This document shows positions 1 through 2,376 of a stretch of DNA of 2,376 bases, piece after piece; position 1 is the first letter of the stretch; each line of letters begins with the position of its first letter. The stretch is from Naegleria gruberi (Eukaryota), in assembly GCA_000004985.1 (NCBI GenBank), contig GG739267.1; one strand, written 5' to 3'. Under the pieces are notes generated by a model. That model saw only the letters and a list, made by a program, of their open reading frames with translations, was not told where the DNA came from and did no database searches. Both the position numbers and the translations under genes were made by a program.

Positions 1-166
1 TATACTTTTGCAACATGATTACATTCAATTTTTATATTTGGAGATATACTTTGTAAATATTTCATAATTTCAGGATTATCACAACAAGAAGAATGTGTTA
101 GTTTAATAAACACACCTTCAGGATGATGTGGATATGAATTAGTCTTGAATACAATTAATAATCTTG
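1..166 (-). CDS. 3'-ward coding exon of gene A, truncated by the window edge; the true 5' end of the exon may be 143, 166 or 207
   Basis: One minus-strand frame is open from 245 to position 1 (81 codons): TPSLFLSLGCLARNLKYSIDCEPYPSARLLIVFKTNSYPHHPEGVFIKLTHSSCCDNPEIMKYLQSISPNIKIECNHVAKV.... The other two frames are stop-riddled. The composition looks globular. Confidence 0.45.
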
Positions 167-342
167 CTGAGGGATATGGTTCACAATCAATTGAGTATTT
201 TAAGTTTCTTGCCAAGCATCCAAGAGAGAGAAATAGTGAAGGTGTTCAATTTTCCTTGTCAATGTGATCAAATCCCTTCTTTAACTGTCTAAAGTCCACT
301 TCTAGATGAGGATTGCTGCCACCACTATGACTATCCACTTAC
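167..342 (-). other. Intron of gene A; the 3' end is uncertain, with candidate acceptors at 168..167, 145..144 or 209..208
   Basis: The strong donor GTAAGT at 342..337 is phase 0. The downstream open frame (245..1) offers a good pyrimidine-tract acceptor ccatatccctcAG at 168..167, but that is phase 1. The only phase-0 acceptor is tgtattcaAG at 145..144. The phase-2 option ttggcaAG at 209..208 follows a long CT-rich tract. Confidence 0.3.
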
Positions 343-487
343 TTTCCTGTTACTATCTAAGGAAGGCATAGTTGGAATCTTGTCTATTGCTAGGTTCCAA
401 CCTTCTTCATTGGTTGGTTTTAACATGAGGAATTTGATAATGGAATTATGTTTGCATAATAGAGCGATTGGAGTTTTATCAATCTTA
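343..487 (-). CDS. Internal coding exon of gene A (145 nt; phase 2 in, phase 0 out)
   Basis: Translation (F)KIDKTPIALLCKHNSIIKFLMLKPTNEEGWNLAIDKIPTMPSLDSNRK has no stops. The frame terminates exactly at AAA|GTAAGTGG (GTAAGT at 342..337) and hits TAG two codons into the intron. This frame is open from 558 down to 343 (72 codons). Confidence 0.5.
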
Positions 488-589
488 CTATCCAAAGAAA
501 CAAGTGATATTTTGCCATCAATAATTGGTGCAATACAAAACGGAAGGCCTTCTAAAACTTATTTTATCAAGCAACGAACAACTACTTAC
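488..589 (-). other. Intron of gene A (102 nt), GTAAGT ... tttctttggatAG
   Basis: Donor GTAAGT at 589..584. The acceptor AG at 489..488 is the only AG that restores the downstream open frame in the correct phase (phase 2). The intron is AT/U-rich with a pyrimidine stretch before the AG, and it has stops in the continuing frame immediately after the donor. Confidence 0.45.
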
Positions 590-672
590 AATGGATTTGT
601 AAACAGCAGAAGTGTCAATTGTTTTTCCAATATTATATCTGGTTGACAGACTCTTAGATTCAAGAGGTTCAC
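590..672 (-). CDS. Internal coding exon of gene A (83 nt, ends in phase 2); could instead be one exon reaching upstream to the in-frame ATGs at 705..703 or 699..697
   Basis: Candidate acceptor ttaacgCAG|GTG (AG at 674..673). The open frame translates VNLLNLRVCQPDIILEKQLTLLLFTNP and ends at the donor ATT|GTAAGTAG (GTAAGT at 589..584 on the minus strand). The same frame is open upstream to 779 (LEYSSRFIKVFDDFTTNMIMSITYN...). Confidence 0.45.
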
Positions 673-701
673 CTGCGTTAAATTGTATGTTATTGACATG
701 A

Positions 702-848
702 TCATGTTTGTTGTAAAATCATCAAAGACTTTGATAAACCTTGAGCTGTATTCAAGTCATAAATATCAGAAACTTTCAAAGCATAAGTGAACGGTGGAAG
801 AGACTGACCGTTTACAAGATCAGAAGAATTAGCAATCATTCGTTTCAT
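702..848 (-). CDS. First coding segment of gene A (48 aa plus stop); alternatively a long upstream ORF in the leader of gene A
   Basis: Minus-strand ATG at 848..846 in context ggtggtataATGaaa (A at -3). The frame is open for 48 codons to TGA at 704..702. The stop-to-stop open frame is 77 codons, which is unlikely by chance at this AT content. Translation is MKRMIANSSDLVNGQSLPPFTYALKVSDIYDLNTAQGLSKSLMILQQT*. A pyrimidine-rich tract lies just upstream on the minus strand. Phase-0 candidate donors inside it (CTT|GTAAAC at 815, AAA|GTTTCT at 773) could splice to the phase-0 acceptor at 673. Confidence 0.35.
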   Translation of the reverse strand: MKRMIANSSDLVNGQSLPPFTYALKVSDIYDLNTAQGLSKSLMILQQT

Positions 849-883
849 TATACCACCATTCTTCAATATATAGTTTTTTGTTG

Positions 884-948
884 AGAGGGAAGAGACACAA
901 ATTACTGTTACAAGTGGGGAGGAGGGGTAAAAATCTTACTTTTAATTT
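884..948 (-). promoter_or_regulatory. Putative core promoter and leader of gene A: pyrimidine (Y) patches and an AT-rich TATA-like stretch upstream of ATG 848
   Basis: On the minus strand, gtgtctcttccctctc (plus 884..899) and cccctcctcccc (plus 916..927) lie 35-80 nt upstream of the ATG. The AT-rich stretch ctaaattaaaagtaag (plus 934..949) lies beyond them. There is no canonical TATAAA. Confidence 0.25.
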
Positions 949-1430: not shown

Positions 1431-1459
1431 CTTTTATTAAGCTAGCTTTTACAATAAAG
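1431..1459. repeat. Imperfect palindrome centred on AAGCTAGCTT (NheI site)
   Basis: The perfect 10-nt palindrome aagctagctt lies at 1439..1448. The flanks ctttTATT and AATAAAg extend the inverted symmetry, with a 4-nt interruption on the right arm. Confidence 0.6.
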
Positions 1460-1518
1460 AAAAATCAAGCAAGCTGAAAGCGAAGCTTGGTTTTTCTTAA
1501 AATTTTAATAAAATTACA

Positions 1519-1567
1519 TTACACACGAGTGGGGTGGAGAAAATATTATTTTACATACGAGTGGGGT
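1519..1567. repeat. Two copies of a 17-nt direct repeat TTACAyACGAGTGGGGT with a 32-bp period
   Basis: Copy 1 is 1519..1535 (ttacacacgagtggggt) and copy 2 is 1551..1567 (ttacatacgagtggggt), 16/17 identical. The spacers are both A/T-rich. Confidence 0.8.
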
Positions 1568-1754
1568 CAAAACGAAGGACCGTAATTAATGTCTCTTCCC
1601 AGAACCCTTGAAACATTTTTTCCGACAAAATTGAGGTTTCGTTCTTAGTTAACAGTAAATAATTGTTTTTATTGCCAGGTTTTAAGATCATGGTGGGCTT
1701 AGAACATAAATTGTATTGCTTAAAACGAATATAATCGCCACTTTCTTCAAGAAA

Positions 1755-1759
1755 CCAAT
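1755..1759 (+). promoter_or_regulatory. CCAAT pentamer upstream of the TATA box of gene B
   Basis: The CCAAT in gaaaCCAATtc lies 24 nt upstream of the TATA box. This is closer than the classical spacing, so it is weak. Confidence 0.2.
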
Positions 1760-1782
1760 TCTTTAATCCGTTGTTGATTTTC

Positions 1783-1790: not shown

Positions 1791-1884
1791 GAGGAGACAA
1801 GTAACTTATATCTGAGGTGCCCACTAATTAGATTCTCATTGAGATTCAGGTTATTTAAAATTCCACTACTGCTGTAGACCTGCA

Positions 1885-1950
1885 GTAAGTTTGTTGTTGG
1901 CCTACAACGACAACAAAAAAAAAAGCGTCAAAACTGCAGTTGTTCTTCAG
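1885..1950 (+). other. Candidate short intron in the 5' leader of gene B (GTAAGT ... CAG at 1939 or ttcttCAG at 1950)
   Basis: CA|GTAAGT at 1885..1890 is followed by an A10 run. Two acceptor-like sites follow, ctgcAG (1938..1939) and tgttcttcAG (1949..1950), giving 55 or 66 nt. The signals are purely sequence-based, and the leader could equally be unspliced. Confidence 0.2.
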
Positions 1951-1991
1951 CTGCTACTAATGGACCACCATTAGAAAGTGTAAATATTGAA

Positions 1992-2376
1992 ATGAGGTTG
2001 GATAGTGAGTCAATGTATTCTGTTTCATTAGATGGTATTTATGGAAATGTGTTATCTGAAGCAAATGTTGTCTCATCACCTGCTTTGAATAGTTGTGTTT
2101 CGTCCTTTTCATTGAAGAAACCTTCTCCATTGGATCAACGCTTGGATTTGTTGAAGTTTGTGAAACAATTTGTCAGAGTAGAGAAGAATGAAAGTAAGGA
2201 AGTAATTGAAGAGGAATTGAGAATTGTTTCAACTTGGAGTCAACAAGATATGATGAACACTCCATCAGTGGCAAGCATGTCAAGTTTAAACTCTGAAATG
2301 AGTTTAATGTCAATGACCTCTGACAGATCATTAGCAAATATGATCAAAGATGATTATTTCAAAGTTCCAGAAAAGA
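1992..2376 (+). CDS. 5' part of gene B: Ser-rich N-terminal region of an unidentified protein, truncated at the window end
   Basis: ATG at 1992 (context attgaaATGA). The frame is open for 128 codons to the last base of the window: MRLDSESMYSVSLDGIYGNVLSEANVVSSPALNSCVSSFSLKKPSPLDQRLDLLKFVKQFVRVEKNESKEVIEEELRIVSTWSQQDMMNTPSVASMSSLNSEMSLMSMTSDRSLANMIKDDYFKVPEK.... It has no stop, which explains its absence from the supplied track. The TATA box lies upstream and the orientation is divergent from gene A. Confidence 0.6.
   Translation, partial: MRLDSESMYSVSLDGIYGNVLSEANVVSSPALNSCVSSFSLKKPSPLDQRLDLLKFVKQFVRVEKNESKEVIEEELRIVSTWSQQDMMNTPSVASMSSLNSEMSLMSMTSDRSLANMIKDDYFKVPEK

What the first reader, a model, noticed from the sequence alone, without database searches (positions are those of the whole stretch)
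1..848. Multi-exon minus-strand gene whose open frames stop exactly at GTAAGT donors; product unidentified
Open frames on the minus strand are improbable by chance at this AT content, given the roughly 0.07 stop frequency per codon expected at this AT content. Four segments of 48, 27-64, 48 and more than 81 codons lie in different frames. Two of them end precisely at consensus donors (ATT|GTAAGT at 589, AAA|GTAAGT at 342). One intron (589..488) is uniquely phase-consistent. This is the signature of a spliced eukaryotic gene. I cannot place the 145+ residue conceptual product (…VNLLNLRVCQPDIILEKQLTLLLFTNPFKIDKTPIALLCKHNSIIKFLMLKPTNEEGWNLAIDKIPTMPSLDSNRK…) in a family by eye.
Basis: partly seen in the sequence, partly recalled or inferred. 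Interest (0 to 1): 0.55.

Follow-up and report, generated by a model that had tools for sequence, protein, structure and literature searches.

The report
Probable orphan spliced gene, structure unresolved

Summary
The statistics are weaker than claimed. Single 48-75-codon open frames are near chance. One frame "ends" at GTAAGT only because GTAAGT contains TAA. Intron 589..488 is not uniquely phase-consistent. The plus strand holds a longer 117-codon open frame (293-643).

The minus strand still looks coding:
- 1-848 can be crossed with 4 frame changes or stops, against 10.2±1.8 in shuffles (p=0.002).
- The open frame 245..3 has GC3 0.12 (familywise p=0.007).
- Two sense GTAAGT occur where 0.18 are expected (p=0.013).

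The frames run f-1, f-2 (or f-0), f-0, f-1, with an in-frame TGA at 246-248.

A spliced gene is the best reading (about 0.55). An intronless reading frame broken by three +1 frameshifts and a stop is the main rival (about 0.2).

No relative was found in Pfam, PHROGs, PDB, a word-index search of 5.8 billion proteins, or a full HMMER scan of 1.84 billion. The one hit, an ankyrin-repeat protein, is inflated by three near-identical repeats, and an ankyrin profile test failed.

The surroundings look eukaryotic: TATA-like boxes, a divergent second orphan open frame, and 1 kb with no coding signal. This is an ordinary feature of low interest.

The parts
740..848 (-). Candidate first coding exon, frame -1. 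ATG at 848-846 and a second ATG at 839-837. Product MKRMIANSSDLVNGQSLPPFTYALKVSDIYDLNTAQ. It may instead be 5' UTR if translation starts at ATG 705 in frame -0.
   Evidence: The frame is open over 935..705. GC1/2/3 are 0.44/0.37/0.25 and T3 is 0.56. Periodicity alone is not significant (chi p=0.09).
673..739 (-). Candidate intron 1, 67 nt: AAG|GTTTATCA...TTTAACGCAG|GT. It is the shortest GT-AG interval that joins frame -1 to frame -2. The donor is weak.
   Evidence: Enumeration and direct reading of the sequence. GC is 0.28, lower than the flanking exons. Inferred, not shown.
590..672 (-). Candidate exon 2 with an ambiguous frame. Frame -2 gives (G)EPLESKSLSTRYNIGKTIDTSAVYKSI.
   Evidence: Both frames are open. 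GC3 and T3 are 0.22 and 0.48 in frame -2 against 0.33 and 0.22 in frame -0. The first AG after the pyrimidine tract (488) suits frame -0; the next AG (484) suits frame -2.
484..589 (-). Candidate intron 2. Donor ATT|GTAAGT at 589-584.
   Evidence: Caveat: frame -0 is open through 558..484, and over 539..484 it shows GC3 0.17. Part of this interval may therefore be coding.
343..483 (-). Candidate exon 3, frame -0: IDKTPIALLCKHNSIIKFLMLKPTNEEGWNLAIDKIPTMPSLDSNRK.
   Evidence: Open frame 558..334 of 75 codons. Ranked sixth longest, p=0.001. Chi periodicity p=0.08.
337..342 (-). Second GTAAGT (AAA|GTAAGT, phase 0). It lies beside the 5-nt zone (338-334) where frame -0 hands over to frame -1. The acceptor is undetermined; candidates end at 285, 208, 167 or 144.
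246..248 (-). The single in-frame TGA separating the open frames 338..249 and 245..3, both in frame -1. It is removed by splicing, or is a nonsense mutation, or is a sense codon in a variant code.
3..245 (-). Terminal open frame of 81 codons that runs off the window. It carries the only individually significant coding signal. The coding part most likely starts near 167-143: ...(R)LLIVFKTNSYPHHPEGVFIKLTHSSCCDNPEIMKYLQSISPNIKIECNHVAKV.
   Evidence: GC3 is 0.12 (0.04 over 143..3), with familywise p=0.007 and chi p=0.004.
293..643 (+). Antisense 117-codon open frame overlapping the candidate gene. Most likely a by-product and not a gene.
   Evidence: No codon periodicity (chi p=0.33, GC3 0.29). 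No Pfam, PHROGs or homologue hits.
864..873 (-). TATA-like CTATATATTG, 18-24 nt upstream of ATG 848. A possible core promoter element.
   Evidence: Direct reading. AT-rich DNA gives such matches easily, so this is weak.

Best explanation
Bases 1-848 hold the 5' part of a protein-coding gene on the minus strand of an AT-rich (33% GC) eukaryote-like contig. The gene is interrupted by short spliceosomal introns, and its last visible exon runs off the window start.

Working model (inferred):
- Exon 848-740.
- Intron 739-673.
- Exon 672-590.
- Intron 589-484 or 589-488, with a GTAAGT donor.
- Exon 483-343.
- Intron from the GTAAGT at 342 to an acceptor between 285 and 144.
- Final exon down to base 3 and beyond.

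What is shown is the coding-like openness, the third-position bias and the excess of sense GTAAGT. The exact splice junctions, the frame of exon 2 and the start codon are inferred. They cannot be fixed without transcripts or relatives.

The product is a lineage-restricted (orphan) protein. No fold or family could be assigned, so its biochemical role is unknown. The only lead is short helix-like motifs (TPIALLCKHNSIIKFLM, SSCCDNPEIMKYLQ) that recall ankyrin repeats. That lead did not survive profile tests.
For: - The minus strand of 1-848 needs only 4 frame changes or stops, against 10.2±1.8 in shuffles (p=0.002). The intergenic stretch 849-1877 shows no such signal.
- The open frame 245..3 has GC1/2/3 of 0.39/0.38/0.12, with familywise p=0.007.
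- Two GTAAGT lie on the sense strand against 0.18 expected (p=0.013). The only other GTAAGT in the window (1885-1890, plus strand) is also sense to its neighbouring open frame. It is followed 60 nt later by ttgttcttcag.
- Pyrimidine tracts followed by AG precede open frames at 505-488 and 232-208.
- The frame overlaps at the three frame changes are 14, 38 and 5 nt. These are shorter than expected for frameshifts in a former reading frame (Fisher p=0.007-0.04).
- The candidate introns are no more open than random non-coding sequence (P=0.52, 0.32, 0.30; Fisher p=0.42).
- A prokaryotic or phage origin is unlikely. There is 1 kb with no coding signal, no long open frame under any stop-codon reassignment, and no phage or plasmid-type hits.
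Against: - There are no transcripts, relatives or conservation data.
- More than 110,000 stop-free GT-AG models exist, so phase consistency carries no weight.
- The donor of candidate intron 1 is weak (GTTTAT), and no convincing acceptor follows the donor at 342.
- Read in the open path frames, the candidate introns keep a mild coding-like bias (GC1/2/3 of 0.40/0.36/0.26). They are not more AT-rich than the exons (0.28, 0.33, 0.37 against 0.36, 0.34, 0.34, 0.26).
- All three frame changes go in the same direction (+1).
- Apart from 245..3, no single exon has significant periodicity.
Confidence: 0.55

Rival explanations
1. This is an intronless reading frame of about 282 codons (848 to 3) broken by three +1 frame changes and one TGA. 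It would be a pseudogene, possibly a decayed copy of a lineage-specific or mobile-element gene, or an intact gene damaged by assembly indels. The two GTAAGT would then be chance Val-Ser codon pairs (GTA AGT).
For: - Four open segments tile the whole 846 nt with overlaps.
- Segments that the spliced model calls introns keep the lowest GC at the third position in the path frames (0.26, against 0.39 and 0.36 in the other frames). Frame -0 over 539..484 has GC3 0.17, and frame -1 over 338..249 has G1 0.37.
- The candidate introns are not AT-enriched.
- All the shifts are +1.
- T4 runs lie in two of the three switch zones (direct reading).
Against: - The overlaps at the switches (14, 38, 5 nt) are shorter than expected for frameshifts (Fisher p=0.007-0.04).
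- Two GTAAGT on the sense strand have p=0.013 by chance.
- The third switch zone (GTGGA) has no homopolymer, so a sequencing indel is unlikely there.
- No intact paralogue or parent family was found anywhere.
Confidence: 0.2
2. Only the terminal open frame (about 167..3 and beyond) is a real exon. The upstream open segments and GTAAGT sites are chance features of intron, UTR or intergenic DNA, so the reader's exons 1-3 do not exist.
For: - Only 245..3 passes a familywise periodicity test.
- The upstream segments of 48-77 codons are each within or near the range of shuffles.
- GTAAGT counted across the whole window is not enriched: 3 against 1.28 expected, and 14% of shuffles reach 3.
Against: - The path statistic for all of 1-848 is p=0.002, and it is absent from 849-1877.
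- The 75-codon frame 558..334 ranks at p=0.001-0.006 for its rank.
- The strand-specific GTAAGT excess has p=0.013.
Confidence: 0.13
3. The coding strand is the plus strand. Frame +1 has only three stops between 149 and 829, including a 117-codon open frame at 293-643. The minus-strand frames would be its shadow.
For: - It holds the longest open frame in the region (117 codons, p=0.005-0.009).
- The plus strand of 1-848 needs only 6 events, against 10.0±1.7 in shuffles (p=0.014).
Against: - There is no codon periodicity (chi p=0.33, GC3 0.29).
- The significant third-position bias at 245..3 belongs to the minus frame, and plus-strand frames there are broken.
- There are no family or homologue hits.
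- There is no sense GTAAGT on that strand in the region.
Confidence: 0.05
4. The gene is read by recoded translation of the Euplotes type, with UGA read as Cys and obligatory +1 ribosomal frameshifting at internal UAA or UAG. This would read 848 to 3 as one protein without splicing.
For: - All three frame changes are +1.
- Each upstream frame, with TGA read as sense, ends at TAA or TAG (692-690, 490-488, 333-331), after which the +1 frame is open.
- Three TGA would then fall in frame.
- Two of the sites share the heptamer GGATAGT.
Against: - The sites are CAA-TAA, GGA-TAG and GGA-TAG. The Euplotes signal is AAA-TAR, or more broadly WWW-TAR, found in 3,489 of 3,700 genes, with UAA at 89% of slippery sites (PMC4759687).
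- Between 539 and 489, frame -0 has the coding-like bias (GC3 about 0.18 against 0.33 for frame -2, counted by hand). The switch therefore lies upstream of the TAG.
- Non-coding DNA here is not more AT-rich than coding DNA, unlike in Euplotes.
- There are no telomeric ends.
- The plus-strand open frame has no in-frame TGA.
Confidence: 0.02

Closest known systems
Taxonomically restricted (orphan) protein-coding genes with short GT-AG introns in AT-rich eukaryotic genomes
   Same: - Short open segments lie in changing frames on one strand.
- GTAAGT donors sit at or near frame ends.
- Pyrimidine tracts followed by AG precede open frames.
- Third codon positions are A/T-rich.
- TATA-like boxes are present, and a second gene is arranged divergently about 1 kb away.
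- There are no detectable homologues.
   Different: No transcript or comparative support is available. Intron 1 has a weak donor, the acceptor of intron 3 is undefined, and the candidate introns are not AT-enriched relative to the exons.
Unitary or duplicated pseudogenes disrupted by frameshifts and a nonsense codon
   Same: Overlapping open segments tile the whole region with three frame changes and one in-frame TGA. A residual coding-like bias runs through the supposed introns.
   Different: The overlaps at the switch points are unusually short. Consensus donors sit at two of them. No parent gene was found.
Ankyrin-repeat proteins (Pfam Ank clan)
   Same: The only database hit (P0001, E=3.4e-7) is an ankyrin-repeat protein. 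The motifs TPIALLCKHNSIIKFLM, HSGGSNPHLEVDFRQLKKGFD..DKENxTP and SSCCDNPEIMKYLQSISPNI resemble TPLHLAAxxGHxEIVKLLLxxGADVN.
   Different: The hit scores through three near-identical target repeats, each about 32 bits. Pfam Ank models, PDB sequences and a purpose-built ankyrin repeat profile give nothing above shuffles. The low-confidence structure model of the last exon is mostly beta strand, not paired helices.
Euplotes +1 programmed ribosomal frameshifting with UGA read as Cys (PMC4759687)
   Same: There are three +1 frame changes, each possible at an in-frame TAA or TAG, plus in-frame TGA codons.
   Different: The slippery motif AAA-TAR or WWW-TAR is absent. The codon bias places one switch upstream of the stop. 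The base composition and the lack of telomeres do not fit.

Membership tests
Spliceosomal-intron-containing eukaryotic protein-coding gene | Coding signal (stop depletion and codon periodicity) on one strand beyond chance | tested here: met
   Crossing 1-848 on the minus strand needs 4 events, against 10.2±1.8 in shuffles (p=0.002). GC3 of 245..3 is 0.12, familywise p=0.007.
Spliceosomal-intron-containing eukaryotic protein-coding gene | GT-AG introns with recognisable donor and acceptor signals that restore one reading frame | tested here: inconclusive
   Two sense GTAAGT have p=0.013, and there are pyrimidine tracts followed by AG. However, more than 110,000 frame-restoring models exist. Donor 1 is weak and acceptor 3 is undefined.
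Spliceosomal-intron-containing eukaryotic protein-coding gene | A spliced transcript exists | not testable with these tools
   No transcript data are available. The source was not found in any held collection.
Spliceosomal-intron-containing eukaryotic protein-coding gene | Exons conserved at the protein level in related genomes | tested here: not met
   No relatives were found in 5.8 billion proteins (word-index search), 1.84 billion representatives (HMMER, last exon only), or in viral, metagenome or prokaryote contigs. The absence may reflect sampling of the source lineage.
Ankyrin-repeat protein | Significant match to an ankyrin repeat profile | tested here: not met
   Pfam gave no Ank family at E up to 1-10. 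A home-built 16-repeat HMM run with filters off against all six frames scored 0.6 bits at best, against a null mean of 1.7 (P=0.75). PDB phmmer found no ankyrin chain at E up to 10.
Ankyrin-repeat protein | Tandem 33-residue helix-turn-helix units | tested here: inconclusive
   Smith-Waterman comparison with a consensus repeat scored 37 at 350-216, against a null of 29.3±3.8 (p about 0.03). The self-comparison shows no significant internal repeat: maximum 23, against a null mean of 24.9. The AlphaFold model has pLDDT 56 and is mostly strands.
Euplotes-type +1 frameshift gene | Frame 0 ends in AAA-TAR or WWW-TAR at each shift site | tested here: not met
   The sites are CAA-TAA, GGA-TAG and GGA-TAG. 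The motif is taken from PMC4759687.
Frameshifted pseudogene | An intact parent or paralogue that reads collinearly through the disruptions | tested here: not met
   No homologue was found for the concatenated 283-residue reading.

The most novel reading that the evidence does not exclude
The region is translated without splicing by a non-standard decoding system. Internal TAA or TAG would trigger +1 frameshifting at non-canonical contexts (CAA-TAA, and GGA-TAG-T twice), and TGA would be read as sense. That would be Euplotes-like 'non-triplet' decoding in an organism or sequence context where it has not been described.
Probability: 0.02. Interest if true: 0.75.

Novelty: new member of a known kind. 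Interest (0 to 1): 0.12.

Why it matters
If the spliced gene is real, it adds one more lineage-restricted gene of unknown function. That is useful for annotating the source genome and not much beyond it. The main value of this check is methodological. Phase-consistent GT-AG chains and frames that end at GTAAGT are very easy to find in AT-rich DNA. They should not be taken as proof of a gene model. A path statistic, codon periodicity and overlap lengths at frame changes give a fairer test.

Tried and rejected
Family and RNA searches, all without hits:
- Pfam on every open segment and on concatenated models gave nothing beyond noise.
- PHROGs gave none.
- Rfam at E up to 1 and tRNA scans gave none.

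Homologue searches:
- The word-index search of 5.8 billion proteins found nothing for the minus concatenation, the plus open frame 1992-2375, or the plus-strand antisense reading.
- The full HMMER scan of 1.84 billion representatives with the 81-residue last exon gave one hit, an ankyrin-repeat protein. Its E-value comes from three near-identical repeats.
- Protein-guided locus searches in metagenome, viral and prokaryote contigs found nothing.
- An exact 34-mer search in all three collections found nothing.
- blastn against phages found nothing.
- PDB sequence search gave only CCL5 at E=1.3, which I treat as noise.

Structure:
- AlphaFold on the last exon gave pLDDT 56, and the Foldseek matches were meaningless.

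Ankyrin hypothesis, not upheld:
- Consensus Smith-Waterman comparison gave p about 0.03.
- The repeat HMM gave P=0.75.
- Self-repeat analysis was not significant.

Alternative genetic codes (TGA sense, TAA/TAG sense) do not produce a coherent set of long open frames.

Euplotes-type +1 frameshifting was rejected on motif and composition.

The inverted repeat 887-908/1579-1600 was considered as a MITE. It has no extended terminal similarity and no target-site duplication.

Full report
**What is in the sequence**

The window is 2376 nt and is the whole source. It is 33% GC with little regional variation.

On the minus strand of 1-848 the stop-free segments are:
- frame -1, 935..705, with ATG at 848;
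- frame -0, 756..589;
- frame -2, 718..521;
- frame -0, 558..334;
- frame -1, 338..249;
- after a single TGA (248-246), frame -1, 245..3, which runs off the window.

GTAAGT occurs on this strand at 589-584 (ATT|GTAAGT) and 342-337 (AAA|GTAAGT).

- Exon 2 is open in two frames.
- Frame -1 is interrupted only by one TGA between 338 and 3.
- The plus strand carries a longer open frame (293-643, 117 codons), and its frame +1 has only three stops between 149 and 829.

**Is it more than chance?**

Single segments are not. In 1000 dinucleotide-preserving shuffles the longest open frames average 89, 75, 68, 63, 60 and 57 codons. The 81-codon segment has p=0.08 as third longest. About 18 segments of 40 codons or more are expected per shuffle, against 22 observed.

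The statement that frames stop exactly at GTAAGT is partly circular. At 589 the stop ending frame -0 is the TAA inside GTAAGT.

Whole-window GTAAGT counts are unremarkable: 3 against 1.28 expected, and 14% of shuffles reach 3.

Phase consistency carries no weight. From ATG 848 to the window start, more than 110,000 GT-AG models with at most four introns are stop-free. Intron 589..484 serves frame -2 as well as 589..488 serves frame -0.

Taken together, the region does stand out:
- The minimum number of frame changes or stops needed to cross 1-848 on the minus strand is 4, against 10.2±1.8 in shuffles (p=0.002).
- The plus strand needs 6 (p=0.014).
- The intergenic stretch 849-1877 shows nothing.
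- The plus-strand frame 1878-2376 needs 0.
- The frame 245..3 has GC1/2/3 of 0.39/0.38/0.12, falling to 0.04 over 143..3. That is familywise p=0.007 among all open segments of shuffles.
- Two GTAAGT on the sense strand of 848 nt have p=0.013.
- The plus-strand 117-codon frame has no periodicity (chi p=0.33) and no hits. I read it as a by-product.

**Introns or frameshifts?**

The frames run -1, -2, -0, -1. Every change is +1.

Two readings compete. In the spliced reading, introns sit at about 739-673, at 589-484 or 589-488, and from 342 to an acceptor between 285 and 144. In the unspliced reading, one frame of about 282 codons is broken by three frameshifts and a TGA.

For the unspliced reading:
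- Read in the open path frames, the candidate introns keep the lowest GC at the third position (0.40/0.36/0.26).
- The candidate introns are not more AT-rich than the exons.

For splicing:
- There is a sense-strand excess of GTAAGT.
- Pyrimidine tracts followed by AG lie at 505-488 and 232-208.
- The overlaps of consecutive open frames are short (14, 38 and 5 nt). A frameshift in a former reading frame should give overlaps averaging about 60-90 nt. Fisher p is 0.007 at a stop density of 0.065, and 0.04 at the measured off-frame density of 0.10.

The openness of the candidate introns is not itself unusual for random non-coding sequence (P=0.52, 0.32, 0.30; Fisher p=0.42).

I therefore favour splicing (about 0.55) over a frameshifted frame or pseudogene (about 0.2). 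Within the spliced reading, several points stay open:
- The frame of exon 2 is undecided. Composition favours frame -2.
- The start codon could be 848, 839 or 705.
- The acceptor of the third intron is unknown.

**Context**

The surroundings fit a eukaryotic locus.
- A TATA-like CTATATATTG lies at 873-864 on the minus strand.
- About 1 kb has no coding signal.
- A divergent plus-strand frame, 1878-2375 (ATG 1992), is the longest in the window (p=0.001).
- That frame is preceded by TATAAATA (1783-1790), GTAAGT (1885-1890) and ttgttcttcag ending at 1950.
- No stop-codon reassignment gives a coherent prokaryote-like gene map.
- There is no tRNA, Rfam or phage signal.

**What the product is**

Nothing could be assigned.
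- Pfam and PHROGs gave no family.
- The word-index search of 5.8 billion proteins found nothing for the concatenated minus reading, the plus open frame, or the antisense reading.
- Protein-guided and exact-DNA scans of viral, metagenome and prokaryote contigs found nothing.

The full HMMER scan of 1.84 billion representatives with the last exon gave one hit (P0001, E=3.4e-7). P0001 is an ankyrin-repeat protein. The score is the sum of three near-identical 29-residue stretches of about 32 bits each.

I followed that lead:
- A consensus ankyrin repeat aligns best with 350-216 in frame -1, across the TGA, with p about 0.03.
- A 16-repeat profile run with filters off finds nothing above shuffles (P=0.75).
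- PDB sequences give no ankyrin chain.
- The self-comparison shows no significant repeats.
- The single-sequence AlphaFold model is low-confidence (pLDDT 56) and mostly beta strand.

Ankyrin membership is therefore not supported, and the function remains open.

**A more exotic reading**

With TGA read as sense, each frame ends at TAA or TAG (692-690, 490-488, 333-331), after which the +1 frame is open. Two of the sites share GGATAGT. This recalls Euplotes, where internal stops specify +1 frameshifting and UGA encodes Cys.

It fails on several counts:
- The Euplotes signal is AAA-TAR or WWW-TAR, found in 3,489 of 3,700 genes (PMC4759687). The contexts here are CAA-TAA and GGA-TAG.
- Codon bias places the second switch upstream of its stop.
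- Non-coding DNA here is not AT-enriched.
- There are no telomeres.

I give it about 2%.

**Verdict**

The feature is most likely an ordinary orphan eukaryotic gene, or a decayed copy of one, whose exon map cannot be settled from this window. Interest is low.

Noticed in passing
window 1878-2375 (+), with 1783-1790, 1885-1890 and 1940-1950: A second, divergent candidate gene. It is a 166-codon stop-free frame running off the window end (ATG 1992; MRLDSESMYSVSLDG..., Ser-rich). It is the longest open frame in the window (p=0.001) and has significant periodicity (chi p=0.007). It is preceded by TATAAATA, by a GTAAGT, and by ttgttcttcag 60 nt later, which may mark a 66-nt 5' UTR intron. There are no Pfam hits and no homologues.
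   Followed up: partly
window 887-908 and 1579-1600: A 22-nt inverted repeat, 86% complementary (GGGAAGAGACACAAATTACTGT / ACCGTAATTAATGTCTCTTCCC), brackets about 714 nt of the intergenic region. It looks MITE-like, but there is no similarity beyond the 22 nt and no clear target-site duplication. A rough estimate puts chance at about 0.05-0.1.
   Followed up: partly
window 1510-1567 and 924-1000: Short G-run direct repeats lie next to the inverted-repeat arms. ACA(C/T)ACGAGTGGGGT occurs twice, 32 nt apart, and GGGGTAAAAA(T/C) occurs twice, 59 nt apart.
   Followed up: no
window 1459-1496: A hairpin, GAAAAATCAAGC-AAGCTGAAAGCGAA-GCTTGGTTTTTC, was flagged as terminator-like on both strands (core 1470-1489). 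It sits in the non-coding spacer.
   Followed up: no
window 293-643 (+): A 117-codon open frame lies antisense to the candidate gene and is longer than any minus-strand segment. It has no codon periodicity and no hits, so it is probably a shadow of the minus-strand composition. For example, exon 3 has few Tyr, His or Gln codons.
   Followed up: yes
window 1554-1781 (-): A 76-codon open frame (..NWFLEESGDYIRFKQYNL..MILKPGNKNNYLLLTKNE..) overlaps the right inverted-repeat arm. Its rank has p=0.004 by length, but it has no periodicity (chi p=0.64) and no PHROGs hit.
   Followed up: partly
window 487-493 and 330-336 (-): The heptamer GGATAGT closes two of the three minus-strand frames. The peptide SLDS(K/N) recurs in frame -0 with synonymous differences (tct ttg gat agt aag / tcc tta gat agt aac). 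IDK recurs three times, and IDGK adds a fourth related occurrence. The self-comparison of the protein was not significant.
   Followed up: partly
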